The translations under genes were made by a program, and so were the position numbers. A stretch of DNA of 64,000 nucleotides from Candidatus Magasanikbacteria bacterium RIFCSPLOWO2_12_FULL_43_12. Its GTDB lineage: Bacteria; Patescibacteriota; Patescibacteriia; Magasanikbacterales; UBA922. The DNA is taken from contig MFQN01000004.1 of the NCBI GenBank assembly GCA_001783065.1, forward strand, positions 22,836-86,835, written 5' to 3'. This document shows, in pieces, positions 7,031 to 41,219 of this stretch (positions are counted from its first letter, which is position 1; the number at the start of each line of letters is the position of its first letter). The notes beneath the pieces are model-generated. The model was not told the DNA's origin. It did no database searches and was given only the letters and a program-made list of their open reading frames with translations.

Positions 7031-7125
7031 ATTTAAGTCATTGCGAGGAACGAAGCCGAAGCGTAGTGACGAAGCAATCCAGAACGATCGCGATGGATTG
7101 CTTCGTCGTCTGCGGACTCCTCGCA
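7031..7125. repeat. long hairpin repeat (family D: ...CTCGCAATGAC / TGGATTGCTTCGTCG...)
   Basis: gtcattgcgaggaacgaagccgaagcgtagtgacgaagcaatcca...tggattgcttcgtcgtctgcggactcctcgcaatgac. A second copy lies inside holA at 25561-25655. Confidence 0.65.
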
Positions 7126-7150
7126 ATGACAGAATGCGTAATCGCTTATA

Positions 7151-9618: not shown

Positions 9619-9660
9619 ACTCTGTTTTTTTACGCAAGCTGAACGTTAATCCGCTCGCCG

Positions 9661-10136: not shown

Positions 10137-10149
10137 GTTCTATTTATGT

Positions 10150-10262: not shown

Positions 10263-10270
10263 TCCCGCAA

Positions 10271-10933
10271 TTAATTCGTCTTTTTCCCTTCCGCCAGCGC
10301 CCAGCATTCGTCCGCGTCGGTGATGTTGTCATACCACGCGCCGTTATGCGACTCGCACAACTGATCTTCTTTGGTGCAGGTCTTAATATTTGTAACGCAA
10401 GTTTCCTGATCGGTTATTTCGCTATTCCACCAATGCGTGTTGCCAACATCCCAAAAACCGCCGACCGCTTCCACCTCATTCAAACAACACCCCAACGGCC
10501 CCTTCGGTTCAGCGGCAGGACCGCTTGTTGCCAGAGGGCCACCCCCTCCGCTTATCATCCTGCTCAAAACAAAATTCGTAATCGCGTAGGAGCCCACCAT
10601 AATAAACAAACCAATAATCGCTCCGATGATTATGTTTTGCGCTTTGGTTATTTGTTCTTCCTCGCCCCTTGCCATCAGCCAGGTGTAGCCACCGTAAAAT
10701 ATCAAGAGAAAAAATATAATGCCGCCGATACTGAACGCGGCTTTGGCGATTCTGCCTGCCAGCGGTTCAATATCAATCTCTTCAGCGCCGATTTTGGTGT
10801 TGGCGTCCGCCGCGAAGCCAGCGGCGTTTTGGGCAGTAAATTTTTCGGCAAAAACGGTTGATGCGGAAAATAAAAAAACAAAATATAACAAAATTGGACA
10901 AAATTTAACAAAATTTTTATTGGACAAAGACAT
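10271..10933 (-). CDS. two-helix pilin-like membrane protein, paralog 6, with a Cys-rich C-terminal domain
   Basis: Core FFLLIFYGGYTWLMARGEEEQITKAQNIIIGAIIGLFIMVGSYAITNFV. The tail has 6 Cys and many Trp/Asn. Confidence 0.65.
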   Translation of the reverse strand: MSLSNKNFVKFCPILLYFVFLFSASTVFAEKFTAQNAAGFAADANTKIGAEEIDIEPLAGRIAKAAFSIGGIIFFLLIFYGGYTWLMARGEEEQITKAQNIIIGAIIGLFIMVGSYAITNFVLSRMISGGGGPLATSGPAAEPKGPLGCCLNEVEAVGGFWDVGNTHWWNSEITDQETCVTNIKTCTKEDQLCESHNGAWYDNITDADECWALAEGKKTN

Positions 10934-10944
10934 ATTTTTGCGTA

Positions 10945-11553
10945 TTACTCGTTACACGAACAGTGCGGACCGATTTTGGCTTCATCCTCTTCATGAAATT
11001 GACAAGTGCCTGATTTAGTCTCTGGGGAATCTGTAAGTGCCCCCCATGTAAAAGTACATGTTGAACCAGTCTGTTTGCCACCACAATCATTTTCATCAAG
11101 ACTCTCTTTAAATGGACAACAATTATTAGCTTTTGTGCATTCTACTGCGGTGTTGTTGTCGCCACCCCCCGACGATGCCGTTCCGGGACCAATACTCTTA
11201 AACACAAAATTTGTAATCGCGTAGGAGGCGAGGACAATGACAATGCCGATGATAGCGGCGGTAATAGTATCAAGCGCCTTGCTTTCCTGTTCCGAATTTC
11301 CGCGCGCGAGCATCCAAGTTAAACCGCCGTATAACATTAAGGCAAAAAACAAAACGCCTACCAGAGACAGGCCGGTGCCGAGTACACTGCCGATGAGGAC
11401 CGGGAGCTGTCCGGGGGCTGTTTTGTCCAACTTGGCCGCGCCAGCGGTTTCCTCAAGACCATATCCTGCCAAAACGATGGTTGGGGCGAAGATGAAAAGA
11501 CAGATGAGAAGAGAGAATAAAAATTTTTTGAAGGACATATTGTTAATTTTCAA
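10945..11553 (-). CDS. two-helix pilin-like membrane protein, paralog 7, with a Cys-rich C-terminal domain
   Basis: Core FFALMLYGGLTWMLARGNSEQESKALDTITAAIIGIVIVLASYAITNFV. Tail ...VECTKANNCCPFKESLDENDCGG...CTF...CQFHEEDEAKIGPHCSCNE. Confidence 0.65.
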   Translation of the reverse strand: MKINNMSFKKFLFSLLICLFIFAPTIVLAGYGLEETAGAAKLDKTAPGQLPVLIGSVLGTGLSLVGVLFFALMLYGGLTWMLARGNSEQESKALDTITAAIIGIVIVLASYAITNFVFKSIGPGTASSGGGDNNTAVECTKANNCCPFKESLDENDCGGKQTGSTCTFTWGALTDSPETKSGTCQFHEEDEAKIGPHCSCNE

Positions 11554-11589
11554 TTTTCAATTTCTAATTTTCAAACAATTTTTAATGAA

Positions 11590-11952
11590 TTAATTTTTAA
11601 TTCCGCCGTTTTTGCGTAATGATGAAGAAATCTTATTGAATATCAAGGTCAGTTGATGTGCTTCGCTCCATAGCGGTCTTAATGTGGCTTTCAATTCTGT
11701 GTTTGTCGTTGCCAGCATCTCCAGCCAATACTTTGTTTCCTGAATTTCTTTGCGGCAGATAAAAATTTTATTTGCAAAATCTTTACGTGAGCTGGCCGCG
11801 TTCGCTTCGCAATAATTAGCCGCCACACTGGTTACTGATCTCCCTAATTGAATGATAATATTTCGATTTAAATCTTTAATTTTGATGGTGGCTAACAGTG
11901 CCATGACATCTTTACTGAATTTTTTAGTTCTTCCCTCCAAATCATACTGCAT
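11590..11952 (-). CDS. four-helix-bundle protein (23S rRNA intervening-sequence protein family), copy 2
   Basis: FSKDVMALLATIKIKDLNRNIIIQLGRSVTSVAANYCEANAASSRKDFANKIFICRKEIQETKYWLEML. Confidence 0.7.
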   Translation of the reverse strand: MQYDLEGRTKKFSKDVMALLATIKIKDLNRNIIIQLGRSVTSVAANYCEANAASSRKDFANKIFICRKEIQETKYWLEMLATTNTELKATLRPLWSEAHQLTLIFNKISSSLRKNGGIKN

Positions 11953-12012
11953 AATTGATTAATTCGGTAATTGAAAATTGTTTGAAAATTGGTAACTGAA
12001 AATTGAAAATTC

Positions 12013-12438
12013 TCAGTACATATCTCCGGTCGTAGAATAATCATACCCGGTCGTGGCTTTGAACAACTGCGACATCACAAAGCGAGTAATGGAATAGGCG
12101 GCGAGGATAATAATCAGGCCAATAACCGCGGCGTAAAGAATCTTTTTCGCGTTGCCGGCTTTTTCCTCATCGCCTCCGGCTGTCATCCAGGTGAATCCGG
12201 CGTAAAGAACCAAAACAAGGGCGATGGTGCCGAGCAAGCCCAACGCCGCGCTGATAATCCGCGCGGTCGTGAACCGCACGTCTGTTTCGCCAAGCCCGGT
12301 TGCCTTGCCGTATTCCATACCGAGATAGGGGCCGGTTTCTTCAACTTGAGCATACGCGTTATTGCCCAAAAGGGTCAAGGCAAAAACCGCGAGAGTGATG
12401 ATGGGAAAAAGTTTTTTCATAATAATTAAATATACCAA
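12013..12438 (-). CDS. two-helix pilin-like membrane protein, paralog 8 (short, no Cys-rich domain)
   Basis: Core LVLVLYAGFTWMTAGGDEEKAGNAKKILYAAVIGLIIILAAYSITRFV. Short tail ending TTGYDYSTTGDMY. Confidence 0.6.
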   Translation of the reverse strand: MVYLIIMKKLFPIITLAVFALTLLGNNAYAQVEETGPYLGMEYGKATGLGETDVRFTTARIISAALGLLGTIALVLVLYAGFTWMTAGGDEEKAGNAKKILYAAVIGLIIILAAYSITRFVMSQLFKATTGYDYSTTGDMY

Positions 12439-13215: not shown

Positions 13216-13785
13216 TTACGACCCGTTCAGTTTTTCCTCCCATTTGCAGTTAGCGCCGCCGGATTGATTATTTTGTTCGCAGTCTTGCTGATCAATGGCT
13301 GCTTTAACGCTTGACTGATTGTTCTCCTCGCACAAACATTGATATTCTTTCTCTTTTTCCGGAACTTCCGACATTATTGGCGCAACAGGCGAAGGCCCTC
13401 CCGTGGCTCCAATCGCTTCCAAAACTAAATTCAGTATAGCATAAGCGCCAAAAATTAAAAATAGCCCGATTGCCGCCCACATCATTGTGTCTAAACCTTT
13501 CTTCACTTTTTCCGTATTGCCGGCTGAAGTAAGCCACAAAAACCCACCGTAAACAAAGGCCATTAAAACTAATGAGCCCACAACCCCCATCGCGCCCGCG
13601 ATGATATTGCCGATAAGCACCCGTATATCAGTCAATCCTTGCGGTTTTTCCGCGGTCCCACCCAAAGGATTGATTAGAGTAACGGTGGTTACGGGAGGAT
13701 CGGTTGGGCCGGCGGCAACAGTGATGGGAAATAGGACTGAAAATGAAAGTAAAATAATGATTAAAAATTTTTTCATATTAAACAT
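13216..13785 (-). CDS. two-helix pilin-like membrane protein, paralog 10, with a Cys-containing C-terminal domain
   Basis: Likely start MFNMKKFLIIILLSF at 13785. The ORF-track extension reads into a family A repeat. Core LVLMAFVYGGFLWLTSAGNTEKVKKGLDTMMWAAIGLFLIFGAYAILNLV. Tail ...YQCLCEENNQSS...CEQNNQSGGANCKWEE. Confidence 0.6.
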   Translation of the reverse strand: MFNMKKFLIIILLSFSVLFPITVAAGPTDPPVTTVTLINPLGGTAEKPQGLTDIRVLIGNIIAGAMGVVGSLVLMAFVYGGFLWLTSAGNTEKVKKGLDTMMWAAIGLFLIFGAYAILNLVLEAIGATGGPSPVAPIMSEVPEKEKEYQCLCEENNQSSVKAAIDQQDCEQNNQSGGANCKWEEKLNGS

Positions 13786-13790
13786 AGTAA

Positions 13791-13908
13791 CCTCCCCTCT
13801 CGAAAAAGGGCGGGTTGTAAATTCCCTCCTCGGAGGAGGGCGCGGGAGGTGTTCGTCAACACTCGCGAACACACCCCCTGCCCCTCTCCGAGAGGGGAGG
13901 TTACGATT
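13791..13908. repeat. REP-like triple-hairpin repeat (family A), solo copy
   Basis: ccctcctcggaggagggcgcgggaggtgttcgtcaacactcgcgaacacaccccctgcccctctccgagaggggagg. Confidence 0.8.
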
Positions 13909-13962
13909 GTTGTGTTTATTTTCGTAGTTCGTAATTTCGTATTCTTTTCGTATGTTCGCACA

Positions 13963-15048
13963 TCACTTTATCCCTCTAAACTCCGTATTCACATTCAAAA
14001 TTTCCAGCATCAAATCAATCGCCGCGTAAGCGACCATGGCGACCACGAGTCCGAGCGCGGCCGCGATCATTGTTTTCTTCCCGGTCTCCACCATTTCCGC
14101 GTTGCCCATAGAGACAATCATCTTGAAACCGCCATAAACGAAAAACGCGAATGCGAATGTGCCTAAAATCGCGAACATGCCGCTGGCGAAATTTATTATT
14201 AATTCCAATAAATTATTCACACTCCGGCAAGTCCCGGAAAACGCGCAGTCAGGCAAAGCGCCAGCATAGTCCTTCGGTTTTCCGTACTGGTTTTCTATCC
14301 AAGCGTCAACGGTGGAGGTGGTCTGCACCGGCGAAACGCCGGTGACGGAAAAATATATACTTCCATCAAGAGTTTGTGATTCTACTCCAGCGACAGGAAC
14401 AGATGCCTTTACTTTCAATTCATAAACTTTTGTTATCAGTTGTTCCGTTGATGTGTCCCAAACAATCTTTGCTTTTCCGCTTCCATCTTCATTTTTTAGC
14501 TCCGCGCTTAATTCCTCGCAATTAACGCATTTTATCTCAATTTCTTCTTTGGTGCCGACGGCCTCAATCTCCGCTGTGCCAATTTTCCCTTCTGTAACTG
14601 GGATCGGATTGCTTTTACTTCCTACATTTGTATTCCACTTCAAATTATACCATTTCACCCAGTCATACATTGTTGCTCCGTTAGTATCTGTGTAAGTTAC
14701 CGCATGATACAACTGACATTTTGGCGTGTCAGCTGTAACGCATACTTTTTTTTGATCAACCGCAAACTGTAAAAGATTTTCACAATCCTCTGTTTTTAAA
14801 AATTTGATAGTCTCATCAACATCCTTAAACGATATCTCTTCGGCCTCGGTTTCACCCAGCCCAATCTCCAATTCCTCCTCTGTATAATAACATCCTCCAT
14901 CTGAAGTCTGTTGAGAATATTTGCAATAACACTTATCACTATACGTCAAAAAAGCCGCGTTTTCTGAAGCATAAACATTTTGTACGTACACCAACACAAT
15001 CGCTAAACCAGCAATGATAGTGATTAGATATTTAATCTGATTCCGCAT
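13963..15048 (-). CDS. two-helix pilin-like membrane protein, paralog 11, with a large (about 270 aa) Cys-containing N-terminal ectodomain
   Basis: Signal/TM MRNQIKYLITIIAGLAIVLVYV. Long variable domain. C-terminal core FAFAFFVYGGFKMIVSMGNAEMVETGKKTMIAAALGLVVAMVAYAAIDLM. Confidence 0.55.
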   Translation of the reverse strand: MRNQIKYLITIIAGLAIVLVYVQNVYASENAAFLTYSDKCYCKYSQQTSDGGCYYTEEELEIGLGETEAEEISFKDVDETIKFLKTEDCENLLQFAVDQKKVCVTADTPKCQLYHAVTYTDTNGATMYDWVKWYNLKWNTNVGSKSNPIPVTEGKIGTAEIEAVGTKEEIEIKCVNCEELSAELKNEDGSGKAKIVWDTSTEQLITKVYELKVKASVPVAGVESQTLDGSIYFSVTGVSPVQTTSTVDAWIENQYGKPKDYAGALPDCAFSGTCRSVNNLLELIINFASGMFAILGTFAFAFFVYGGFKMIVSMGNAEMVETGKKTMIAAALGLVVAMVAYAAIDLMLEILNVNTEFRGIK

Positions 15049-15057
15049 ACTATAAAC

Positions 15058-16431
15058 CTACATCGTCTGTTGAATTAACTTCGCCGCGTTGGTTAAAAGC
15101 TGGACATCTTTTTGATTCTCGCTCTTAGTGGAGCCTGACGGCTGTAAACTGTTGTGCAGCATTTCAGTAAATACTTTCGCGGCCGCTTCTTTATTTTTGC
15201 CTCTATACCAACTCTCGGCTTGCAAGATCGTGCTGACAAACGGTTTCAGCATCTCATTAGCTTCTTGATCTTTAATCTGCGAACGCAGAGGCGTGGGCCG
15301 CTTGGTCGCGTCAGTATATTTTTTTATATTATCCGGCGTAGTCATGAATCTTACGAAATCCCACGCTTCATCCTGATGTTTAGATTTTTTTACTACTGTT
15401 TCCAGCCAATAATTCGCCACATTCGTCGGCGAGGCTTCGTTCAGTTGCAAAATCGGCATAATTTCCAAATCCATTTGCGGAGCGCGGGCTTTGATAAGCG
15501 GGTAATCGTAGGCGAAACCGAAATAAAATACACTTTTGCCGGACGAGAAGTTTTCCAGCGCGTCTTTCATTGTTTCATTCCAGCTATAAACCTCTTTTGT
15601 CGGACGGGCGAAGTCGGTATAAAAACGCAACGCGACTAATGCCGGATGATTTGGTTTGCCGGCAGTGAGCCCGTCGGCAAAACTAACGCGGTTGCCCGAC
15701 GCCATTTTGGCTCCGCTTTGCGACATAAACAAAGAAAGAATATCAAACGCGCGGTCAATATTATTTCCGGTTCCTAAAGCAACGCCGGACTGAACAATGT
15801 CGCCTTTTTCATTGAACCGCGTGCTGGTCTTAACCGCGGCCATAAATTCATCCCAGGTCTTTGGCGCTTCCGCCACGCCGGATTTATCTAACAGTTCTTT
15901 ATTATAATATAAAGCCATGGTATCAAACGCGAGCGGTAGACCGTAAATTTTATTATCAATCACCGCGTCATCATAAACCGCGTTGACAAAGCTGTATTTA
16001 ATCGCGCTGACCGACGGCATTTTATTCTCTTCAATGGTAACGACCTGTTCTTTTGTATATTGACTCTTGATGTAAACATTCGCGACTTTCACGCTCGCGG
16101 GCATCGGCGCGAGCCAAGAAACATACCTGCGCAAATCGCGCGGACTCACAGAAATAATATCCGGCGGCACATCGTCGGCAAGAGCGCGCAATAATAATTG
16201 TTCAAGTTCCTCGCCGCGCACTTTACGGATGTTTATTTTTACATACGGCCTCTGCGCCTCGTATTCCTTCTTGAAAACGTCAAGCTGATCCAGATCATTA
16301 TAAACTGTCCAATAATTTAACTTGACCGGCTTAACCGCGGCGGCTTGCTCGGCGGAAAGACCCTTGCAACCGAAACCAAGCATGGTAACGAGGGTTAACA
16401 AAGAGAAAAGGGTTAGGTATTTTTTTAGCAT
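15058..16431 (-). CDS. ABC transporter extracellular solute-binding lipoprotein (sugar-type, family 1)
   Basis: 457 aa. Lipobox LGFGC. Overall SBP_bac_1-like composition. Confidence 0.7.
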   Translation of the reverse strand: MLKKYLTLFSLLTLVTMLGFGCKGLSAEQAAAVKPVKLNYWTVYNDLDQLDVFKKEYEAQRPYVKINIRKVRGEELEQLLLRALADDVPPDIISVSPRDLRRYVSWLAPMPASVKVANVYIKSQYTKEQVVTIEENKMPSVSAIKYSFVNAVYDDAVIDNKIYGLPLAFDTMALYYNKELLDKSGVAEAPKTWDEFMAAVKTSTRFNEKGDIVQSGVALGTGNNIDRAFDILSLFMSQSGAKMASGNRVSFADGLTAGKPNHPALVALRFYTDFARPTKEVYSWNETMKDALENFSSGKSVFYFGFAYDYPLIKARAPQMDLEIMPILQLNEASPTNVANYWLETVVKKSKHQDEAWDFVRFMTTPDNIKKYTDATKRPTPLRSQIKDQEANEMLKPFVSTILQAESWYRGKNKEAAAKVFTEMLHNSLQPSGSTKSENQKDVQLLTNAAKLIQQTM

Positions 16432-16495
16432 ATTAATTATGTGCGAACTTACGAAAAGAGTACGAAATTACGAACTACGAAAACTTGCTTTTTAT

Positions 16496-16906: not shown

Positions 16907-16988
16907 AAATTTTCATTCTAAATTTCGTAGTTCGTAATTTCGTACTCTTTTCGTATGTTCGCACATTCCATAGTTCGCACATCCCACA

Positions 16989-18608: not shown

Positions 18609-20024
18609 TTAAAGTTCTTCCCAGCTGATTAAATCATACACCGTTCCCACCGGAAAACCGGGCGGCGGGTAGTATTTCAGATTGCCGTCGTAGATGTGAT
18701 AGGTGTCAACAAAACCGGAAACCACATTGCCCCAGCCATTGACATATTTCCAACCGCCGCCTTGATAAGAAATCTGCGAGCCGAATATCGTCAAACTATC
18801 TTTCAAGCCATTATAATAATATGGATGGTAAAGTTTACTAAATTGCGACAGCATGGCGGCGTTAATTTCCATGTCGTTTGGCACATCATGCGGTATAACA
18901 ACATCGCCTTGCGCCAAAATGCCAACAACATCGTCGCTGGATTTTTCCGCGTAAAGTAAATTGTTGTTTATATACGCTTTTTTATACGGCTCCTGCACTG
19001 GAAACTTCCCCACTCCGACACTTACCCGGCCGTCAACCGTGCCTTCTATCCAAACGTCGTCTTCCACAAAAATCGCGCCTGTGGTCGGTATTGAGTAGGT
19101 GCCAACAAGCTGTTCATTACCGATATCATAACAATAAGTATTGCCACTCCAATACCACCCTTTCCATTTTTTATAAAGCCACTTGCCTTCGCCATAGTAA
19201 CAGTCGCGGCTGGTGACTTTATATAGTTTGTAAGTCGCGCCGGTGAAGACAATGTGCCAACCTTCTTTGCCGGAAGCAGTATAATGTGTCCCCGACTGAT
19301 CAGCCAAATCGCGGATATCAGATAAGTCCGCGGTTACGGAAAAAAAATCTATTTCCGGAACAGGATACTGCCAAAATGATTTCGGTCCGCCGCCGCCCCA
19401 AACACCGTTATGGGTTTGGTTTTGATATTTATATGTCTCTTTAGCGCTCTTTACCCAAGAATCTGTTGTGCCATCAAATCTTATTCCGCCATTGGAATGG
19501 GTGGTGCCGTGGACTTCCGTGGTAAAACTAAAATTCATGTTGGCGTTGGAGAGGAATGTATAGTCGGTCAACGCCGCGAATCCCAATCTGACTTGAAGCT
19601 CGCGTTTGGTCTGTGGTTCGGCGGTGGTCCAGCCGGTGGAACGGACAATCACCACGCTGCTGCCGGCCAGCGGCTCATCAATTTCCAAAGAATAATAGCC
19701 GATTACCGTCCCATTTTTATCTTCATAATCGTGCTGATATGGTCCGGGTTCGCCTCCGGTTCCGTCCCAATAATCCGTCGGCGAGTGCGCCAAATGCCAG
19801 CGGTAATAATTTATTCCGGCCTCGGCGATCTGAAACGCCAAGTCGCGATTGTGCTTGCGATTTGACGCTTTATTTTCAAAAATCGCGTAGCTCGCCACGC
19901 CGGAAATTATCATCATGCTTGCCACCGCGCCGAAAACCAAAACAAACATAAGGATGCTGCCACGATGCTTTGATGTGGATTGTTTATTTTTTTTGGATAA
20001 CATAGTGTGCAGATGTGCGAACAT
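18609..20024 (-). CDS. hypothetical membrane-anchored protein, possibly pilus-associated (PilX-like N-terminus)
   Basis: 471 aa. N-terminal TM helix (ILMFVLVFGAVASMMIISGVASYAIF). W/Y/G-rich extracellular domain. Sits directly downstream of two prepilin-type genes. Confidence 0.4.
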   Translation of the reverse strand: MFAHLHTMLSKKNKQSTSKHRGSILMFVLVFGAVASMMIISGVASYAIFENKASNRKHNRDLAFQIAEAGINYYRWHLAHSPTDYWDGTGGEPGPYQHDYEDKNGTVIGYYSLEIDEPLAGSSVVIVRSTGWTTAEPQTKRELQVRLGFAALTDYTFLSNANMNFSFTTEVHGTTHSNGGIRFDGTTDSWVKSAKETYKYQNQTHNGVWGGGGPKSFWQYPVPEIDFFSVTADLSDIRDLADQSGTHYTASGKEGWHIVFTGATYKLYKVTSRDCYYGEGKWLYKKWKGWYWSGNTYCYDIGNEQLVGTYSIPTTGAIFVEDDVWIEGTVDGRVSVGVGKFPVQEPYKKAYINNNLLYAEKSSDDVVGILAQGDVVIPHDVPNDMEINAAMLSQFSKLYHPYYYNGLKDSLTIFGSQISYQGGGWKYVNGWGNVVSGFVDTYHIYDGNLKYYPPPGFPVGTVYDLISWEEL

Positions 20025-20146
20025 ACGAAAAGGATACGAAATTACGAACTACGAACAGCGAATTGGGGTAAAAAATAAAAATATATATATCATCATGATA
20101 TTTCGTAGTTCGTAATTTCGTAATTGTTCGTAAGTTCGCACATAAC

Positions 20147-20812
20147 TCAATTCCCTTTCAAATTCCTTATCATCGCCGCGCTTTCCACTTCCAGCGGCAC
20201 CGGGCTTTCGGTTGGGTCTTCTTCAAGCTCAAGACGCACGCGAATCATTCGCGCGTCAACCTCGTCAATCGGTTGGACCAGCGCGGCTTCAGTGCCGGTG
20301 TAATCTTCGTCATAATACAAAAACACTGGTTCGCTCTCTTCAAAATTCACCACGCTGTGCGCGATTTCAACCGTTTGCTCCGCGCCGGAATAGCTTAATG
20401 GACTACCGCTCGGTTTTATCACGCCCTTTTTTAATGTTGTCCCATCCAACCAGAACCTTACCCGTTCCCGCAAACTATCGTCATCAACGTTGGCGTAAAC
20501 AATCAGTTCATAATCACCCGCTTCTGCCAGCGGATAGCCGCCAATGCTGGATTCTTCCGCCTTTCTAACAACATCAACTACTTGCTGTAAAACTTTGCGG
20601 CCGTCGTTTTGGGTTTGCAATTGTCCAAAAATAATATCGCTGTAACGCAAACCATCAATAATCAACCAAACTACTGTTATGGCAATCATAGCGGAAATTC
20701 CCAAAGCCACCGATAACTCCACAATAGTAAATCCCTTGTGTTTCTTTGTGTTTTTTCTACGTATCATATTTTCGTAGTTCGTAGTTTCGTAATTGTTCGT
20801 AAGTTCGCACAT
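20147..20812 (-). CDS. prepilin-type N-terminal cleavage/methylation domain protein (type IV pilin/pseudopilin-like)
   Basis: KGFTIVELSVALGISAMIAITVVWLI class III signal. Confidence 0.7.
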   Translation of the reverse strand: MCELTNNYETTNYENMIRRKNTKKHKGFTIVELSVALGISAMIAITVVWLIIDGLRYSDIIFGQLQTQNDGRKVLQQVVDVVRKAEESSIGGYPLAEAGDYELIVYANVDDDSLRERVRFWLDGTTLKKGVIKPSGSPLSYSGAEQTVEIAHSVVNFEESEPVFLYYDEDYTGTEAALVQPIDEVDARMIRVRLELEEDPTESPVPLEVESAAMIRNLKGN

Positions 20813-20814
20813 AA

Positions 20815-22608
20815 TTATTCACTCGTCATCTCCGCCCCAAAAATCATATCGCCGGAAACACTCACCGTCTGGGTATTGGTTTGATAGCCGGTCTTCGTTA
20901 TTTCAACCGTGTAATCTGTCGCTGACAAACCGCCAAAATATGACTGACCGGGCGGGGTGCAGGCATTGGTATAGGTGACCATCAAATCTGAAACTGTCGG
21001 TGTAACCGCGGTTGACGCAGTGCTTAAAAATAATTTATAGCGAAAATATCTATCGCCATTGTGTGTGCTGTTGATTGCGATGTTCTCGGCATCATAATAT
21101 GTCGCGGCTGTGCCATCCGGTCCCAAATAATTCCACGACGCGGGCGCTGAAACATCACTGGTGGCAATCTGCCAGCGGACAGAATCCGCGCCTGTCTCTG
21201 CCGGCTGGCCCAGCGGCTCCCAGATTAAATTAACAAAATTAACCGCGACGCCCAAATCAAACACTGATGATTCAAGCTCGCCGCTGGTAAGATAGTTTTG
21301 TCCGATTTTCGCGAGAACAATATCGCCGGCATTGTTCCCGTTAACATCAACTTTCCCATCATCGCTCCAATACTTTGTTTCGTCAACATAAGAAAGCTGG
21401 CCTGAACCGCCAGACCAGTCGGTCTGTCGCGTAAAACCGATTCCGGTGGTCTTGGTCTGGTCATAACTCCCGGCATAAGCGCGCACGCTCGCGTTGGAAA
21501 TCGGCTGATTCGTGGTATTATCAACGACATTAACCAACAAAGAATTACTCGTGTTGGCGCCGACTAAAAGTTGAACAGGTTGTGTGACGCCGGCAGGCAA
21601 ATCAATCGGTAAAATCGGGATTGACCCGATTAAATCATAACCGGAATTAACGCTCAAGCCATAAGAGTCCCACTCTAAATCAATTAAACTGCCAGCTCCA
21701 CCGGCATCAGTGGAAAAATCGTCGTCAACCTTGAAAACATCGGGTTCAACGCCAAATAGTTTCGTTCCTAAAACATGCAGAGAAACATTCCCAACCGCGG
21801 AACAATACGCGTTGGTGGTGGAAATATCCATTTGCGAAACCCTATCTATGGAAAAACTAATCTCGGTAACATTCTGCGCCTCCACTGATGCCGGCTCTTT
21901 CACCGGGTCCGGAATTGCCTCGCTCGGCGCTATGGTTTGGTCTATGGTGTATCCGTCTTTAGACACGGTGATACTATAGACGCCGATGCCCGCGCCCAAA
22001 TCAACCAATTTTAACATACCATCGTTGTCCGTCGTGTCTGTCAAATCAATGGTCGGATTAGTTTCAGTGGCGACAATATGAACATCCGCGCCGGAAACCG
22101 GATCGCCGTCAGCGTCAAACACTTCAATAAACAACGCGCCATGCGTCGGATCGCCTTCTAAAAGTTTCGGCGAAACATAGGTCGCCTCGCTCACTTTTTT
22201 TGTTTGGTTGCATTTGTCACAGATTATTTCCACCTCAACTAATTTATAGTCAGCCGGCGCGAGATCGTTGGGGTCGCCGCCGATAGTGCCATCAAATTCG
22301 TCGTCAATGTTTCTAATCGTGCGCGTAATTTCAAATTCAATTCCACTGCGGGTGGTTGTTACTGTTCTTTCTAACACGCCTGACGGACTGCCGTTGATAA
22401 TGCCGACATCTTCAAACGGCAGGTTGCGAATAATTTCCAGTTGTTCGTTCAAAAGCGCGGTTTCCAAAATTTTCATCCGCGAATAATAAACCGACTTGAA
22501 AACAAACTGAATGCCGGAATAAATTCCACTCATGAATAACAAAAACACGCCGAGCGCGACGACAATCTCGATAAGGGTGAAACCGCGGTGTGTATTTTTA
22601 TCTGCCAT
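20815..22608 (-). CDS. large prepilin-type N-terminal domain protein (minor pilin/pseudopilin-like)
   Basis: RGFTLIEIVVALGVFLLFMSGIY class III signal, followed by a 570 aa beta-rich domain. Confidence 0.65.
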   Translation of the reverse strand: MADKNTHRGFTLIEIVVALGVFLLFMSGIYSGIQFVFKSVYYSRMKILETALLNEQLEIIRNLPFEDVGIINGSPSGVLERTVTTTRSGIEFEITRTIRNIDDEFDGTIGGDPNDLAPADYKLVEVEIICDKCNQTKKVSEATYVSPKLLEGDPTHGALFIEVFDADGDPVSGADVHIVATETNPTIDLTDTTDNDGMLKLVDLGAGIGVYSITVSKDGYTIDQTIAPSEAIPDPVKEPASVEAQNVTEISFSIDRVSQMDISTTNAYCSAVGNVSLHVLGTKLFGVEPDVFKVDDDFSTDAGGAGSLIDLEWDSYGLSVNSGYDLIGSIPILPIDLPAGVTQPVQLLVGANTSNSLLVNVVDNTTNQPISNASVRAYAGSYDQTKTTGIGFTRQTDWSGGSGQLSYVDETKYWSDDGKVDVNGNNAGDIVLAKIGQNYLTSGELESSVFDLGVAVNFVNLIWEPLGQPAETGADSVRWQIATSDVSAPASWNYLGPDGTAATYYDAENIAINSTHNGDRYFRYKLFLSTASTAVTPTVSDLMVTYTNACTPPGQSYFGGLSATDYTVEITKTGYQTNTQTVSVSGDMIFGAEMTSE

Positions 22609-24082: not shown

Positions 24083-24203
24083 TCACCAACGAACACCTCC
24101 CTCGCCCTCCTCCGAGGAGGGAAATTATAAACTCCCCTCTCGAAGATGGGTGAAGAAATTTACAACCTCCCCTCTCGGAGAGGGGCAGGGGGTGTGTTCG
24201 TAC
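24083..24203. repeat. REP-like triple-hairpin repeat (family A), solo copy
   Basis: gaacacctccctcgccctcctccgaggaggg...cccctctcggagaggggcagggggtgtgttcg. Confidence 0.8.
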
Positions 24204-25138: not shown

Positions 25139-26185
25139 CTACGCCGTCCCCACAAAAACATCCAACAATAACGACTGGTCGCCTTGGCCGGTCTTTGTTT
25201 TTACATCTAAATCCAACAAACGCTGATAAACGGTTTTTAATTTAGCCAAAGAATATTTTTTAACGAACACCAAAGACTTTTTTACGACAAACGGATGCAG
25301 ATTGAGTTTTTTCGCCAGCTGTTCACTCGGTAGATTATCTTCGCGGTCGTATAAATCCCGCAGTTCCAACAAAATTCTAAATTGCCGCAGAAGCATCGCA
25401 AAAACAAACTGCGCGTCCTCCCCCAATCGGTACTGCTCGCGAATCATTTTATACGCCTCTTTACTTCTCCCTGCCACCACCGCGTCAACGAGGTTGAAAA
25501 TGCTATCGTCGGCTTTTTCGTCAAGAAACAATTGAACATCGGCAAGCTCAATTTCGCGCCCTGTCATCGCGAGCCCCGGCACAGGGGCGTGGCGATCCAG
25601 CCCGTCGCCACTGGATTGCTTCGTCGCTCGTTCCTCGCTCCTCGCAATGACATATGCTATCAGTTGGTTTATAAGCGAATTCAGTCTCCACATATCCCCG
25701 CCAACATTCCGCGCCAAATATTGCACCGCTTGCTGGTCAATCTTTCCACCCCGTTCTTTAACTTCCTGCGTTATCCAACTATTTAATTTCACCCCAACCA
25801 ACAAATCAAACTTCTGACAAAACTTTTCTTTCGCCAAACACTTGAATAAATTTTCGGCTTCTTTGCCTTTGAATTTATCAGCGCCTTCCCAAAAAACCAA
25901 TACGGTCGCGTCCGACAAACTCTTCTTTTCTATTTTTTCTTGAAGTCCCGCCAACAAATCCTTATTTTTTGATAATAATAAATTTTCCAAAATAACCATT
26001 CGCTTCTCCGCCAAAAACGGCGTGGCTAAAATCTGCTCCCAAATTTTTCCATCTTCCTCTTTTTGACAATCCAAAATAGCCGCGTTATATCCACCCGGAT
26101 CGCGGTCTTTCTTGAACTTTTCTATCATTTTTTTTAGTTGTTGCCGGCTCCGGAACGTATCCGCGCCGTAGAGGAATATGATCAT
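25139..26185 (-). CDS. holA: DNA polymerase III delta subunit (carries an in-frame hairpin-repeat insertion)
   Basis: N-terminus MIIFLYGADTFRSRQQLKKMIEKF, typical of HolA. Codons ...KQSSGDGLDRHAPVPGLAMTGREIE... are encoded by a family D repeat at 25561-25655. Confidence 0.7.
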   Translation of the reverse strand: MIIFLYGADTFRSRQQLKKMIEKFKKDRDPGGYNAAILDCQKEEDGKIWEQILATPFLAEKRMVILENLLLSKNKDLLAGLQEKIEKKSLSDATVLVFWEGADKFKGKEAENLFKCLAKEKFCQKFDLLVGVKLNSWITQEVKERGGKIDQQAVQYLARNVGGDMWRLNSLINQLIAYVIARSEERATKQSSGDGLDRHAPVPGLAMTGREIELADVQLFLDEKADDSIFNLVDAVVAGRSKEAYKMIREQYRLGEDAQFVFAMLLRQFRILLELRDLYDREDNLPSEQLAKKLNLHPFVVKKSLVFVKKYSLAKLKTVYQRLLDLDVKTKTGQGDQSLLLDVFVGTA

Positions 26186-26234: not shown

Positions 26235-26492
26235 TTAGATTTTATTCCGTTCTACGATCGTGTTTTCAACCACAAAATCAATAAAATACCTGCCCATCCG
26301 CCTGCCATTATACATCAATACGCATTTTTGCTCTTTTTTATACAACTTTTTTCTATCTAACAGTTCCATCTCGTATGCTCTTTGATAATATTTCTCTTGA
26401 TAACCAAAACCCAATCTATTACTGACATTAAAAGCTAAACCTACCAACTCATAGCTTAATTCCGGATACAAAAGATCACCCTCCTTATTCAT
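26235..26492 (-). CDS. GxxExxY family protein
   Basis: LYPELSYELVGLAFNVSNRLGFGYQEKYYQRAYEMEL contains GYQEKYY. Confidence 0.7.
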   Translation of the reverse strand: MNKEGDLLYPELSYELVGLAFNVSNRLGFGYQEKYYQRAYEMELLDRKKLYKKEQKCVLMYNGRRMGRYFIDFVVENTIVERNKI

Positions 26493-26529
26493 ATTGGTGG
26501 CAATTAGTGGTCGCTTAATTAGTGGGCTG

Positions 26530-27135
26530 TTATTTCAACTCCCCCCACCTTTTCCCCACACCGTCTTGGGGGGTATATTTCCGCAGAGATGGAAACGCTT
26601 TTAAAACCAAAACATACAAAAACACAACGACGGCCGGAATCACCAACATAAAAGAAATGGCCAGCCAAATAAACTGATAATTCTTCCTCACATAAAACAA
26701 ATAGCCAACCCCAGCGCCACAACTCATTGCGGCAAACATAATTAAAAGCGCCGACGACGCAAAGCTGTCCAAGACGAGTTTGCCAAAAACAGTGCGGCCT
26801 TCTGAAAGAACAATTGAATTAAGCAGGTTGCTTAACAGGAAGAACAACAAGACAAAAAAGAAAACCTTAACAATTTTGATGGTAAACTCAAAAATCTGTA
26901 GCGGCACCGAAAAATCATCATATTTTGTCAGTACTCGAGAACGACGAACAGCGATGATAAAACCCAACAATGGCGAAATTATGACCTGAAAACTGCGAAG
27001 TATTATAATGTCCATCCACCCATCTCTGGTGTTCCCCATCCAAAATGCCCCGAGACTCCAAAATTTTGTGGCGCCAGTAGTCCGGTTGTCCGCTGCAGTA
27101 AAACTTTTATTCCAAAATAATTTTATAACTTTCAT
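26530..27135 (-). CDS. hypothetical integral membrane protein
   Basis: 201 aa with several hydrophobic segments. A repeat overlaps its 3' end. Confidence 0.4.
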   Translation of the reverse strand: MKVIKLFWNKSFTAADNRTTGATKFWSLGAFWMGNTRDGWMDIIILRSFQVIISPLLGFIIAVRRSRVLTKYDDFSVPLQIFEFTIKIVKVFFFVLLFFLLSNLLNSIVLSEGRTVFGKLVLDSFASSALLIMFAAMSCGAGVGYLFYVRKNYQFIWLAISFMLVIPAVVVFLYVLVLKAFPSLRKYTPQDGVGKRWGELK

Positions 27136-28365: not shown

Positions 28366-28526
28366 ATGATATAAAAATTAAACACGCACAAAATCTGCGT
28401 GCATTGTTTTAAATAACAAAAAGTTCTGCTCATATTCTATCATGACGCGCGCTTTTTGTGAAACTAAAAAATCAGTGGTTTGCCTTATTTATATTAGTGG
28501 CAATTAGTGGTCGTCAAATTAGTGGA

Positions 28527-31241
28527 CTATAATTTCAAACCCCCCCACATCTTTCCCACACTTACACGCGCCTCCACCGGCACGTTTAATTTTACCACAT
28601 TCTCCATCGCGTCTTTTACTAATTTTGATGCTTCTTTTTCCAAACCCTTCTTAACCTCCAATACCAATTCATCGTGCACCTGCAAAATCAATCTCACATC
28701 GCTCTCGGACTTTATAGACTTTATGACTTTATGGACTTCAATCATGGCGAGCTTCATCAAATCCGCCGCTGTGCCCTGAATCGGCATATTGATCGCCATC
28801 CGCTCGCCGGCGGAACGCAGTTGAAAATTATCGGATTTTAATTCCGGAATATATCGCCGCCGGCCAAATAGCGTTTCAACATAACCTTCTTTCTTGGCAA
28901 ATTCTAAAGTTTGGTCAATGTATTTTTTCACGCTGGAGAATTTTTCAAAATATTTTTTTATAAAATCTTTCGCCTGCCACTGTGGCATTTTTGTTCGCCA
29001 TGCCAACCCGTAAGAACCCATGCCGTACAACACGCCGAAATTCACGGCTTTCGCCGCGTAGCGCATTTCTTTCGTTACTTTATCTAATGGGACATCATTG
29101 ATCGCCGCGGCGGTTGCTTGGTGAATATCCTCTCCGCGCTTGAACACTTCAATCATTGTTTTGTCTTTGGCCAATGACGCGACAATGCGTAATTCAATTT
29201 GAGAATAATCCGCCGCGATTAAATTGTTCCCGGCTTCGGCGACAAACGCGTTGCGAATTTCTTTGCCTAAATCAGTGCGAATCGGAATATTCTGCAAATT
29301 CGGTTCAGAGCTGGAAAGCCGTCCCGTGGTTGTTACCGCTTGATTAAAAGTCGTATGAATACGACCGGTTTTTTTGTTTACAAGCGTTGGCAAAACATCA
29401 ACATAAGTATTCTGCAATTTCGCCAATTCGCGATAATCGCGAATCATGCTGATAATGGGATGTTCGTCAATCAATTTCTCCAGTTCGGCGTCAGCGGTGG
29501 AATATCCGGTCTTCCCTTTTTTAATTTGTTCGCTCGGCAATTTTAATTTATCAAACAAAATATCGCGCAGCTGCGTCGGCGACGCGATATTAAATTCTTC
29601 GCCAGCCTCTTTTTGAATTTGTTTGTCAATTTTATTTATTTCTCCGGCGACATCTTTGGATAATTTTTTTAACACAACAGTGTCAATCGCGATGCCATTC
29701 AATTCCATCTCAGCCAAAACCGGTATTAATTTCATCTCCACTTTTTCAAACAAACCAAAATCTTCCATATCCGCCAGCTTTTTCTTTTGTATTTCGTAAG
29801 CTTTTAAAATCAGCTGTAATTCTTCGGCCACTTGTTTTGGATTAGCGCCAAACAAACTGCTTTGGTCTGATCCGCCCTGAATCTCCTGCCCCAGCTCGCG
29901 CAAAATAATGCTTTTTGCGTCATGGGCGCGGGTACTGGAGTTGATCAGGTAGGATGCGATCATGGTGTCAAACAGGTGAGCGAAGTCTGTAAAGTCTATA
30001 AAGTCGTAAAGTCTATAAAGTACTTTGATGAGTTGTTTGAGGTCGTGGCCAACGAGGATCTTGTCTTTTGAATAGAACACGGATTTAACGGATTGAACGG
30101 ATTTGGACGGATCAGAGAGAAAATAACCGGACGAGCCGACGACAAAAACCAATCCTAACAAGTCGCTGTTTAAAATGTCCGTCCCGCTCAAAATTTCCTT
30201 GCAGGCAAAAACATCCGCGCCATTTATCGCTTTCTCTAATTCACCAATGTTCTTCTCATCAATCTCAATCATTCTCATCTCGTTCTTTCTCGTCTTCGCT
30301 CCTACATCCTCCACCCTACGTCCTCCGCCCTCGCTCTCCCCGCCCGGCAACCTCTTAATCAACGAGAAAAACTCAAACTTCCTCAACAAATCAACCACGC
30401 TCTGTCGGTCAAAATCTTTCATCGCGCAGTCTTCCAGCTTAAAATCTAATCCAGGCACGTCTCTCACCACTGTCGCCAATTTTTTACTCATCATGGCGCT
30501 GTCTTTTCCATCTAAAAGTTTTTTAATCACGCCCTCTGTAAAAAACTTTCGGACTTCGGACTTCGGACTTCGGACTTGCGCGTATATCTCCATAATTCCG
30601 CCGATTTTCTCAATCAACTCCGTCGCCGTCTTTTCCCCAATCCCCGGCACGCCCGGAATATTATCCGACGCGTCACCGCACAAAGATTTGTAATCAACAA
30701 TATGTTCGGGCCCAAAACCATATTTCTTTTGGACTTCATCAATATCATACATCACAATATCGCTCATGCCTTTTCTTAGCGCGTAAACACTGGTGTCCTC
30801 ATCAACCAACTGCAGAAGGTCCATATCGCCGCTCACTACAATATTTTTCATTTTGATTTTTTCATTTTCAACTTTAGCCACGATAGTGGCGATAACGTCA
30901 TCGGCTTCGAAGCCTGCTTGTTTTAAAATCGGCAGACCGAACGCCTCAACAACTTTATGAACCAATGGAATTTGATCATACAGTTCTTGATCCGCTTTCA
31001 CCCGTTTGGCTTTATAACCATCATAAATTTTATCGCGAAAAGTTCCGCCGGCAACATCAAAGCTAACCGCCAAATAATCCGGTTTTAAATCTTTAATCAC
31101 TTTCAACAGCATTGAAGTGAAACCATACACCGCGTTCACCATCGTGCCTTTGACCATCATCGGCGGCAGGGCGTGGTAAGCTCTGTGTATTATTGCGTTG
31201 CCATCTATAATAACAAACTTTTTGGTATCCATACCCAACAA
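28527..31241 (-). CDS. polA: DNA polymerase I
   Basis: 904 aa. 5'-3' exonuclease N-terminus (FVIIDGNAIIHRAYHAL), 3'-5' exonuclease region, polymerase motifs (RRAAKAVNFGVLYG, LQVHDELVLE). Contains in-frame low-complexity repeat insertions. Confidence 0.9.
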   Translation of the reverse strand: MLGMDTKKFVIIDGNAIIHRAYHALPPMMVKGTMVNAVYGFTSMLLKVIKDLKPDYLAVSFDVAGGTFRDKIYDGYKAKRVKADQELYDQIPLVHKVVEAFGLPILKQAGFEADDVIATIVAKVENEKIKMKNIVVSGDMDLLQLVDEDTSVYALRKGMSDIVMYDIDEVQKKYGFGPEHIVDYKSLCGDASDNIPGVPGIGEKTATELIEKIGGIMEIYAQVRSPKSEVRKFFTEGVIKKLLDGKDSAMMSKKLATVVRDVPGLDFKLEDCAMKDFDRQSVVDLLRKFEFFSLIKRLPGGESEGGGRRVEDVGAKTRKNEMRMIEIDEKNIGELEKAINGADVFACKEILSGTDILNSDLLGLVFVVGSSGYFLSDPSKSVQSVKSVFYSKDKILVGHDLKQLIKVLYRLYDFIDFTDFAHLFDTMIASYLINSSTRAHDAKSIILRELGQEIQGGSDQSSLFGANPKQVAEELQLILKAYEIQKKKLADMEDFGLFEKVEMKLIPVLAEMELNGIAIDTVVLKKLSKDVAGEINKIDKQIQKEAGEEFNIASPTQLRDILFDKLKLPSEQIKKGKTGYSTADAELEKLIDEHPIISMIRDYRELAKLQNTYVDVLPTLVNKKTGRIHTTFNQAVTTTGRLSSSEPNLQNIPIRTDLGKEIRNAFVAEAGNNLIAADYSQIELRIVASLAKDKTMIEVFKRGEDIHQATAAAINDVPLDKVTKEMRYAAKAVNFGVLYGMGSYGLAWRTKMPQWQAKDFIKKYFEKFSSVKKYIDQTLEFAKKEGYVETLFGRRRYIPELKSDNFQLRSAGERMAINMPIQGTAADLMKLAMIEVHKVIKSIKSESDVRLILQVHDELVLEVKKGLEKEASKLVKDAMENVVKLNVPVEARVSVGKMWGGLKL

Positions 31242-32181: not shown

Positions 32182-32258
32182 GCGATTTAATTTTCAATTT
32201 GTAAATGCCGATTTCATTGAGCGCCCCCGACAAAGTCGGAACAATTTTGTATCTAAAT

Positions 32259-32336
32259 CTCCCCTCTCGGAGAGGGGCGGGGGGTGTGTTCGCAAAGGTT
32301 TGCGAACACCTCCCTCGCCCTCCTCCGAGGAGGGAG
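32259..32336. repeat. REP-like triple-hairpin repeat (family A), solo copy
   Basis: cccctctcggagaggggcggggggtgtgttcgcaaaggtttgcgaacacctccctcgccctcctccgaggaggg. Confidence 0.8.
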
Positions 32337-32468
32337 TTAACCTGTGATTGTTTAAAATTAAAAATTCGCTAATACTATACCACAAATAAACCCGCACTTC
32401 AAGACCACAAACCCGCCTCGTTGGCGGGTTTTTCGTGTGGGTTTTGTTAATTGTGTTTTGTGTTCTGT

Positions 32469-41176: not shown

Positions 41177-41219
41177 TTCGAACCATTGGATCCACAATCT
41201 CTCCGAGAGAGAGGTTTTG

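What the first reader, a model, noticed from the sequence alone, without database searches (positions are those of the whole stretch)
25561..25655. Hairpin repeat (family D) inserted in-frame inside holA
The roughly 95 bp palindromic element seen intergenically at 7031-7125 (TGGATTGCTTCGTCG...CTCGCAATGAC) recurs inside the delta-subunit gene at 25561-25655. It keeps the reading frame and adds about 30 residues (..SSGDGLDRHAPVPGLAMTGREIE..). In-frame MITE insertions tolerated in an essential replication gene are unusual. They could encode a surface loop or be removed at the RNA level.
Basis: seen in the sequence. Interest (0 to 1): 0.55.

Follow-up and report, generated by a model that had tools for sequence, protein, structure and literature searches.

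The report
Palindromic repeat translated inside holA
A 90-base palindromic repeat sits in frame in the clamp-loader delta gene (holA) of a Candidate Phyla Radiation bacterium and adds a floppy 30-residue loop between two protein domains. This kind of event is already known from Rickettsia and other bacteria.

Summary
holA (25139-26185, minus strand, 348 aa) carries a 90-nt, 67% GC palindromic insert at 25562-25652. It encodes VIARSEERATKQSSGDGLDRHAPVPGLAMT. 75 of the 120 closest homologues have only a 3-5 residue linker at this position.

The insert is not a classic MITE. It is a head-to-head dimer of two REP-like hairpin units of the CGTC/TGTC-tagged type: tag, stem starting with AT, CCA tail. 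This is the superfamily that includes Rickettsia RPE-4 and RPE-6, which are known to sit in frame in replication and repair genes.

The same unit sequences occur in at least 120 genome stretches across many phyla and in at least 120 viral contigs. The insert lies in the domain II-III linker and is modelled as low-confidence loop. All holA copies keep a length that is a multiple of 3, so it is most likely translated rather than excised.

Two features are less ordinary:
- 40 of the 120 homologues carry an insert at this linker, and the four kinds read as DNA are different palindromic elements.
- The insert is 90-97% identical between orthologues whose flanking third codon positions are only about 46-54% identical, which points to a constraint on the nucleic acid.

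Verdict: a new member of a known kind, of moderate interest.

The parts
25139..26185 (-). holA, the DNA polymerase III delta subunit (clamp loader), 348 aa. The host gene.
   Evidence: ORF. Pfam DNA_pol3_delta at residues 4-120 and DNA_pol3_delta_C at 227-345. AlphaFold2 model with mean pLDDT 87.7. Best structural matches are B. subtilis delta 3zh9 (E = 1.4e-18) and E. coli delta. 100% identical to a Candidatus Magasanikbacteria protein, P0001.
25562..25652 (-). REP-like head-to-head heterodimer including the two TGTC tag bases. It is translated as residues 179-208, VIARSEERATKQSSGDGLDRHAPVPGLAMT.
   Evidence: Sequence. Absent from 75 of 120 homologues. GC is 67% against 43% for the window. 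Same architecture in six orthologues. Tag, tail and dimer features.
25611..25651 (-). Unit A, the 5' unit in gene sense: GTCATTGCGAGG-AGCGAGGAACGAGC-GACGAAGCAATCCAG.
   Evidence: The ATTGC...GCAAT stem covaries with ATCGC...GCGAT in other units.
25601..25610 (.). Central spacer between the two units (gene sense TGGCGACGGG). This spacer type was found only in holA copies.
   Evidence: The spacer pattern matched only two metagenome contigs, and both are holA.
25563..25600 (+). Unit B, with its head on the + strand: GTCATCGCGAG-CCCC-GGCACA-GGGG-CGTGGCGATCCAG. It forms the 3' arm in gene sense.
   Evidence: The exact unit pattern occurs in at least 120 genome stretches across many phyla. The inner CCCC/GGGG stem shows a compensatory change in L002.
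7036..7131 (.). Intergenic copy of the same family, a near-perfect homodimer. Units at 7037-7082 (+) and 7094-7130 (-), spacer at 7083-7093. It lies between two tandem minus-strand paralogous small membrane-protein genes.
   Evidence: (z = -8.3).

Best explanation
The feature is a selfish REP-type element. It consists of two imperfect-palindrome units of the CGTC/TGTC-tagged kind, joined head to head, that landed in the codons for the short linker between domains II and III of HolA in an ancestor of a subgroup of Magasanikbacteria.

The element has no stop codon in this frame, its length is a multiple of three, and the linker is structurally permissive. The gene therefore stayed functional, and the element is read through by the ribosome as a hydrophilic, largely disordered 30-residue loop.

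The peptide itself appears unconstrained. What is kept is the nucleic-acid palindrome: its boxes and stems. This could be through the sequence requirements of whatever propagates or recognises these units, through conversion from other copies, or through selection on the hairpin.

Shown: the insertion, its family, its position in the protein, frame preservation, and nucleotide-level conservation. Inferred: that it is translated, that it is neutral for delta function, and how it moves. No transposase is known for this superfamily.
For: 1. Insertion. 75 of 120 homologues have a 3-5 residue linker, and 40 have 14 or more residues at this site.

2. Family features. The base 5' of GTCAT is C in 68-70% and T in 26-28% of 115 independent copies, against a background of 31% and 19%. 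The tail is CCA in 65 of 107. Tags face outwards, which makes it an HH dimer. These match the CGTC superfamily as defined in PMC3733652.

3. Each unit is its own hairpin. In the right-hand units of the viral set, the box1/box2 combinations are T/A 216, C/G 14, T/G 3 and C/A 0.

4. Translation. Insert lengths in the six orthologues are 78-108 nt, all multiples of 3, despite three independent indels. Family lengths in general fall 38/36/41 across the three classes modulo 3.

5. Location. The insert lies between Pfam domains. The model shows a helix extension to residue 191 and then coil, with block pLDDT of 76, 56 and 54.

6. Nucleic-acid rather than peptide constraint. The insert is 90-97% identical in nucleotides and 83-100% at third codon positions, against 67-78% and 46-54% in the flanks. 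For 28 of 30 identical third positions where 0.46 is expected, the binomial P is 5e-8. The rise in identity is confined to the insert. Between WIN (this window's copy) and L003, four of the five changed codons are nonsynonymous.

7. Precedent. In-frame CGTC REP dimers encoding 20-30 aa are known in dnaE, uvrA/B, polA and tRNA synthetase genes.

8. Other CPR cases found here: LeuRS carrying three dimers, and LepA carrying VIARSEATKQSPGDRHAPSGLAMT.
Against: No expression data exist, so translation is inferred.

Strong conservation at synonymous sites over a divergence where the flanking synonymous sites are saturated is not what a purely neutral passenger predicts. It leaves room for a host-level function of the hairpin.

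The closest relative by flanks (L001, 82% nucleotide identity) has the most divergent insert interior (66%). More distant relatives are 90-96% identical. Simple vertical descent does not explain this.

The units are 38-41 nt composite hairpins, not the 8-9 bp stem with a 4-5 nt loop of the four catalogued CGTC families. Membership is therefore at superfamily level only.

Only two copies are seen in this 64 kb, and the rest of the genome was not available.
Confidence: 0.7

Rival explanations
1. The palindrome is kept because it works as a cis-acting nucleic-acid element inside holA. It could be an mRNA hairpin that tunes delta synthesis or mRNA stability, or a DNA site bound by a conserved REP-binding factor. 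On this view the peptide is a by-product.
For: Third-position identity in the insert is 83-100%, against 46-54% in the flanks, and the boundaries of the conserved stretch are sharp. Changes are mostly nonsynonymous. A compensatory CG to GC change keeps the small hairpin in L002, and the tag bases pair as C-G in three copies and U-A in two. GC of 67% is maintained in a 43% GC genome.
Against: Close relatives do without it (P0005 at 87% identity, P0013) or carry unrelated elements at the same site. The same units are equally conserved in unrelated genes and phyla, so the conservation is a property of the family and not of holA. There is no terminator-like U tract and no Rfam match.
Confidence: 0.17
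2. The insert is young in each lineage. The same element inserted repeatedly, or was overwritten by gene conversion from other genomic copies. This would explain both the high identity and the patchy distribution without any selection.
For: Distribution in the gene tree is patchy. L001 has the same boxes but a different interior. A near-identical A/B heterodimer sits in LepA of another Magasanikbacterium. L008 and L251 are 89% identical overall but differ by presence or absence of the insert.
Against: WIN (this window's copy), L003, L004, L008, L249 and L250 share the GTGGCGAC core of the central spacer, and L002 has a variant of it (GTGGTGGC). The spacer pattern matched only two JGI metagenome contigs, both holA. 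All copies have the same position, frame and orientation. The GRE codons just after the insert vary synonymously (CGC, CGA, CGG, CGT), as expected for an old shared allele.
Confidence: 0.1
3. The segment is an intervening sequence removed from the RNA or the protein, so mature delta lacks it.
For: Hairpin-forming GC-rich insert. CPR bacteria are known from general knowledge to carry insertions in rRNA genes.
Against: Frame and absence of stops are preserved through three independent indels, while the family at large shows no bias in length modulo 3. No intron or other RNA-family match. The peptide has no intein-like features and is only 30 aa. Cleavage of an mRNA hairpin without religation would destroy the message.
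Confidence: 0.02
4. It is native protein sequence, or an assembly artefact.
For: Several orthologues share the residues.
Against: Most homologues lack it. It is a DNA palindrome homologous to a repeat found in hundreds of unrelated loci. Eight independent assemblies agree.
Confidence: 0.01

Closest known systems
CGTC-tagged REP superfamily (Di Nocera et al. 2013, BMC Genomics 14:522, PMC3733652)
   Same: - Terminal CGTC/TGTC tag that is not part of the unit stem.
- Stem beginning with AT.
- CCA tail.
- Mostly head-to-head dimers, including heterodimers.
- Present in several phyla.
- Intragenic dimers encoding 20-30 aa, often in replication, repair and tRNA synthetase genes.
- No transposase found.

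Alleles of this same holA linker in relatives carry a textbook CGTC-1-like unit: TGTC ATCCCCGT GAAA ACGGGGAT CCA, peptide CHPRENGDP. Rickettsia conorii has CHSRESGNP.
   Different: The units here are 38-41 nt composite hairpins (an ATTGC/GCAAT outer stem plus an inner mini-hairpin), not an 8-9 bp stem with a 4-5 nt loop. The host is a CPR bacterium and the gene is holA, and neither is in that paper's lists. The same unit sequence is near-identical across phyla and in viral contigs.
Rickettsia palindromic elements (RPE; Ogata et al. 2000, cited from general knowledge and via PMC3733652)
   Same: Palindromic repeats inserted in frame into genes that stay functional. They add short peptide segments at permissive places, and the peptides start with V-I and end with M-T in the same frame. 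An example is ampG VIPWLDHGIQ...LQTCGMT.
   Different: No sequence similarity to RPE-1. A different host lineage. Here one linker has been colonised repeatedly by different families.
REPIN/RAYT systems (GTAG REPs; Bertels and Rainey)
   Same: Two inverted REP units with a spacer form a hairpin doublet. Populations of copies keep a master sequence.
   Different: The tag is CGTC/TGTC, not GTAG. No RAYT gene was seen next to any copy. REPINs are reported to be vertically inherited and lineage-specific, whereas these units are shared across phyla.
Bacterial MITEs (for example Correia/NEMIS, Coxiella QMITEs)
   Same: Short non-coding inverted-repeat elements that sometimes lie in frame in genes.
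   Different: No target-site duplication and no IS-like parent element. The conserved parts are subterminal hairpins rather than simple terminal inverted repeats.

Membership tests
CGTC-tagged REP superfamily | Conserved unpaired tetranucleotide tag CGTC (variants TGTC, CCTC) at one end of the unit | tested here: met
   Among 115 copies the base before GTCAT is C in 78 and 80 copies at the two ends, and T in 32 and 30. holA copies have CGTC or TGTC at both ends. Exception: the left tag of the intergenic copy at 7036 is AGTC.
CGTC-tagged REP superfamily | Stem whose first two positions are complementary A-T residues | tested here: met
   GTC-AT...AT-CC in units A and B and in the CGTC-1-like alleles. 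The third stem position covaries T/A against C/G.
CGTC-tagged REP superfamily | Three-nucleotide unpaired tail, consensus CCA | tested here: met
   CCA in 65 of 107 copies, followed by CTC in 21 and CCC in 9. Both arms of the holA copy have CCA(G).
CGTC-tagged REP superfamily | Stem of 8-9 bp and loop of 4-5 nt (families CGTC-1 to CGTC-4) | tested here: not met
   Units A and B are 41 and 38 nt, with an interrupted stem and an inner hairpin. The feature is met only by the different element in P0011 and P0003. This element is therefore not a member of CGTC-1 to CGTC-4. The authors state that more classes exist.
CGTC-tagged REP superfamily | Predominantly head-to-head dimers (tags outside) | tested here: met
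   Both window copies and nearly all fetched copies have this arrangement. Definition.
CGTC-tagged REP superfamily | Many dispersed copies per genome | tested here: inconclusive
   There are two copies in this 64 kb, and the rest of the genome was not available. Other genomes have many copies, for example Inquilinus.
Rickettsia palindromic elements | In-frame insertion in an otherwise intact conserved gene, absent from orthologues | tested here: met
Rickettsia palindromic elements | Sequence membership in RPE-1 to RPE-8 | not tested
   No RPE reference sequences were available. Only the shared CGTC architecture of RPE-4 and RPE-6 is known from PMC3733652.
MITE | Target-site duplication flanking terminal inverted repeats | tested here: not met
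   The flanks are GCATA|T...A|GGGCG in holA and TTTAA|...|AGAAT at the intergenic copy, with no direct repeat.
REPIN/RAYT | GTAG tag and a cognate RAYT (Y1 transposase) gene flanked by the REPs | tested here: not met
   The tag is CGTC/TGTC. No systematic search for a RAYT gene was made. Genes lying between paired copies in eight loci were only inspected as ORF translations. The one nuclease gene that did abut units was confirmed as GIY-YIG.
Self-splicing intron / intein | Recognisable ribozyme or Hint-domain features | tested here: not met
   No Rfam match down to E = 10. A 30-aa peptide is too short for an intein.

The most novel reading that the evidence does not exclude
The holA linker may be a preferred landing pad rather than merely a tolerant spot, and the resident REP may be kept by selection on its nucleic-acid structure. 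If so, in CPR bacteria a cross-phylum family of CGTC-type hairpin units, possibly mobilised by an unrecognised enzyme, would systematically remodel inter-domain linkers of essential replication and translation proteins (HolA, LeuRS, LepA). A candidate for that enzyme is the small GIY-YIG nucleases seen next to units in four loci. The copies would then be functional cis-elements.
Probability: 0.15. Interest if true: 0.65.

Novelty: new member of a known kind. Interest (0 to 1): 0.4.

Why it matters
This finding extends in-frame REP/RPE insertion, until now documented mainly in Rickettsia and a few Proteobacteria and Verrucomicrobia, to the Candidate Phyla Radiation and to the clamp-loader delta subunit.

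It provides a natural series at one protein linker: empty sites, single units, dimers and several element families. That series could be used to study how such elements enter and leave genes.

The excess conservation at synonymous sites, together with the near-identity of the units across phyla, bears on an open question: what maintains and mobilises CGTC-type REPs, for which no transposase is known.

Practically, these inserts inflate and diversify CPR protein sequences. They can mislead annotation and alignment.

Tried and rejected
- **Rfam.** The gathering-threshold scan of the window and permissive scans of both copies gave no family.
- **Literature search for the box sequences and typical peptides.** Nothing relevant was found. 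No paper in the library links CPR with REP or RPE.
- **Peptide search for other proteins carrying the insert.** An artificial 57-aa concatenate returned only one weak hit and did not even recover P0001, so the result is uninformative.
- **Recombination tract around the insert.** Identity drops to background within 10 codons on both sides, so this was rejected.
- **Precise excision footprint in the closest insert-free relative (L251 against L008).** The linker region is simply non-homologous, so no clean boundary could be read.
- **GC-spike scan of the window for further intragenic hairpin inserts.** The result was too noisy. The one candidate followed up, in polA (30289-30373), is a variable linker of unchanged length and not an insertion.
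- **Box-versus-loop partition of substitutions.** Significance was only marginal (P = 0.04 for one pair), so this is not used as evidence.
- **Search for a mobilising gene.** No small GIY-YIG gene was found in the window or in CPR loci. A RAYT was not sought systematically.

Full report
**Observation.** holA is the minus-strand ORF at 25139-26185 and encodes 348 aa. It has Pfam DNA_pol3_delta at residues 4-120 and DNA_pol3_delta_C at 227-345. It is 100% identical to a protein of a Candidatus Magasanikbacteria genome from the Candidate Phyla Radiation.

In gene sense, the segment 25563-25651 reads GTCATTGCGAGGAGCGAGGAACGAGCGACGAAGCAATCCAG-TGGCGACGGG-CTGGATCGCCACGCCCCTGTGCCGGGGCTCGCGATGAC. It is translated as VIARSEERATKQSSGDGLDRHAPVPGLAMT.

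The intergenic copy is at 7037-7130, between two tandem minus-strand paralogous genes. The two copies share exact blocks of 13-15 nt in the same order, and their variable parts differ. There is no third copy in the window.

The intergenic copy is a near-perfect hairpin (z = -8.3). The holA copy is a weak one (z = -2.3 and -2.7).

**It is an insertion.** I aligned the 120 best homologues.
- 75 have a 3-5 residue linker, typically KNGEE, between the conserved LIDQLxAY and EIxLxDVQLF motifs.
- 40 have 14-58 residues at this site.
- The window protein is 28 residues longer than the common 320-323 aa form.

The same insert, at the same codon and in the same orientation, is present in P0002, P0008, P0009, P0010 and P0012. 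It is also in two JGI metagenome contigs. All come from independent assemblies. This rules out a chimeric assembly.

**What the element is.** The insert DNA from six orthologues shows a constant architecture: unit A, a short spacer, then an inverted unit B that has its own CCCC-loop-GGGG hairpin.

The hosts include Inquilinus, Opitutaceae, Xanthobacteraceae, Ignavibacteria, Spirochaetota, Peptococcaceae, Saccharibacteria, Magasanikbacteria, Komeilibacteria and Falkowbacteria.

Measurements on 115 independent copies gave the following:
- The base 5' of GTCAT is C in 68-70% and T in 26-28%, against a background of 31% and 19%.
- The three bases after the unit are CCA in 65 of 107.
- The tags face outwards.

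Within a unit, ATTGC...GCAAT and ATCGC...GCGAT covary. In units whose inner box was not part of the search pattern, the counts are T/A 216, C/G 14, T/G 3 and C/A 0. Each unit is therefore its own imperfect hairpin.

These are the features by which Di Nocera et al. (PMC3733652) define the CGTC-tagged REP superfamily:
- a CGTC tag, often TGTC;
- a stem starting with AT;
- a CCA tail;
- mostly head-to-head dimers, including heterodimers;
- intragenic copies;
- no associated transposase.

That paper equates CGTC-1 and CGTC-4 with Rickettsia RPE-6 and RPE-4. It reports in-frame dimers encoding 20-30 residues in dnaE, uvrA/B, polA, recBCD and tRNA synthetase genes. Its listed peptides start with VI and end with MT, as this one does.

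One catalogued feature is not met. The units here are 38-41 nt composite hairpins, not an 8-9 bp stem with a 4-5 nt loop. I therefore place the element in the superfamily but in none of the four described families. No peptide of this type appears in that paper's lists. There is no target-site duplication and no Rfam family.

**Where it sits in the protein.** The AlphaFold2 model has mean pLDDT 87.7. It matches B. subtilis delta (3zh9, E = 1.4e-18) and E. coli delta. Residues 179-208 extend the last helix of domain II to residue 191. After that they are coil, with block pLDDT falling to 56 and 54. They lie before the first helix of the C-terminal domain. This is a permissive inter-domain linker.

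**Translated or removed?** Insert lengths in the six orthologues are 78, 90, 90, 90, 99 and 108 nt. All are multiples of three despite at least three independent indels, and none contains a stop. In the family at large, lengths fall 38/36/41 across the three classes modulo 3, and only about half of all frames are open. Frame preservation therefore reflects selection on a translated sequence. Nothing suggests a ribozyme or an intein. Translation remains an inference, because no expression data were available.

**An unexpected conservation pattern.** Among this window's copy (WIN), L002, L003, L004 and L008, the figures are as follows:

| Region | Nucleotide identity | Third-codon-position identity |
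|---|---|---|
| Insert | 90-97% | 83-100% |
| Rest of holA | 67-78% | 46-54% |

For 28 of 30 identical third positions where 0.46 is expected, the binomial P is 5e-8. The rise in identity is confined to the insert. The adjacent 10-codon windows are at 0.61-0.72, so a recombination tract is not the cause.

The few differences are mostly nonsynonymous: four of the five changed codons between WIN and L003. One orthologue keeps the small hairpin through a CG to GC double change, and the outer tag bases pair as C-G or U-A. The constraint is therefore on the nucleic acid, not on the peptide.

The spacer pattern shared by the holA copies matched only two contigs in the JGI metagenome collection, and both are holA. 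The arginine codon after the insert varies synonymously: CGC, CGA, CGG, CGT. Both facts favour common descent of these copies.

Two facts do not fit simple descent. The closest relative by flanks, L001, has the same boxes but a different interior, at 66% identity. The insert is also patchy in the gene tree, interleaved with empty and differently filled alleles. L008 and L251 are 89% identical overall yet differ completely in the linker. Turnover at the site, by conversion, replacement or loss, is therefore likely. I could not resolve the history.

**A recurrently colonised linker.** Other alleles carry other elements within a few codons of the same place.
- P0011 has a single textbook unit, TGTC-ATCCCCGT-GAAA-ACGGGGAT-CCA. 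P0007, read as protein only (CHSLEKGNP), appears to carry the same kind of unit.
- P0003 has a head-to-head dimer of that unit, with a G-C to A-T compensatory difference from P0011.
- P0014 has a 150-nt TGTC...GACA dimer of an ATTCCGAG type.
- P0020 has a degenerate TGTCATTGTGAAC followed by a different hairpin with a folding energy of -98 kcal/mol.

Many other homologues carry peptides typical of translated GC-rich hairpin repeats. Entry points differ by 0-4 codons, so these are independent events. Tolerance of the linker is the simplest explanation, and targeting cannot be excluded.

In-frame units of the same family also occur in other CPR genes among the fetched loci:
- leucyl-tRNA synthetase of a Parcubacterium, with three separate dimers;
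- LepA of another Magasanikbacterium, with VIARSEATKQSPGDRHAPSGLAMT;
- a DUF4012 protein.

It is a new member of a known kind (CGTC-type REP or RPE-like in-frame insertion) in a new host lineage and gene, with a longer unit variant. The nucleotide-level conservation, the repeated colonisation of one linker and the cross-phylum identity of the units are the parts worth following up.

Noticed in passing
L135:924-1220, L141:4660-4968, L148:4478-4957, L202:323-619: Four of the five small stand-alone GIY-YIG nuclease genes found by a motif search in the 1.9 Mb of fetched loci lie within 0-87 nt of units of this repeat family; three of these four were checked against Pfam and match PF01541. One of them is flanked on both sides. 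The loci come from Alphaproteobacteria and Opitutaceae. This could be chance in repeat-dense genomes, or a lead to the unknown mobilising enzyme. None was found in the window or in CPR loci.
   Followed up: partly
L129:1023-3800 (minus strand): Leucyl-tRNA synthetase of a Parcubacterium carries three separate in-frame palindromic-repeat dimers: CHCEESEGRRSNP...GARDDG, VIASSERAKQS...APRNDD and CHSRSASVIPAQAGIQ...LGMT. One lies between the catalytic and editing domains.
   Followed up: partly
L162:1215-3152 (plus strand); L132:4851-7478 (minus strand): LepA of another Magasanikbacterium contains an A/B heterodimer of the same family, in frame within the GTPase domain region. A DUF4012 protein carries a single unit B (VIASPAQAGRGDP).
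   Followed up: partly
window 7714-7874, 8258-8418, 13779-13939, 24087-24200, 32244-32343, 41093-41181: A second, unrelated GC-rich hairpin repeat family, CGAACAC(A/C)CCCC..CCCCTCTCCGAGAGGGGA, often occurs as adjacent inverted pairs with folding energies of about -60 to -78 kcal/mol. Peptides such as PSPCKGEG in the linker of some HolA homologues look like translations of this kind of repeat, but this was not checked at the DNA level.
   Followed up: no
window 40592-40637 and 49162-49208: Two matches above the gathering score to the Rfam Acido-Lenti-1 RNA motif. One overlaps an inverted-repeat pair (40723-40788 and 49162-49227). They are probably yet another dispersed hairpin repeat.
   Followed up: no
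window 26483-26561 and 28483-28561: A 79-nt direct repeat (84% identity), exactly 2000 nt apart. The first copy overlaps the start of a truncated PDDEXK_3 nuclease-like gene (26235-26492) just upstream of holA.
   Followed up: no
window 2093-2235, 13918-13966, 16415-16490, 16921-16969, 20012-20143, 20770-20815: An AT-rich repeat family built on TACGAAATTACGAACTACGAAA, present in both orientations and often as inverted pairs about 440 nt apart.
   Followed up: no
window 7386-12249: Six copies of a 173-nt conserved segment mark a tandem family of small membrane-protein genes with a conserved GEEE..EK motif. The intergenic copy of the repeat lies between two of them.
   Followed up: no
genome loci L129-L248; viral loci L009-L128: A fixed pattern of 30 specified bases for unit B occurs unchanged in bacteria of many phyla. 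Dimers of the family are common in IMG/VR viral contigs, between phage structural genes. This degree of sequence identity across phyla is unusual for REP-type repeats, which are usually lineage-specific.
   Followed up: partly
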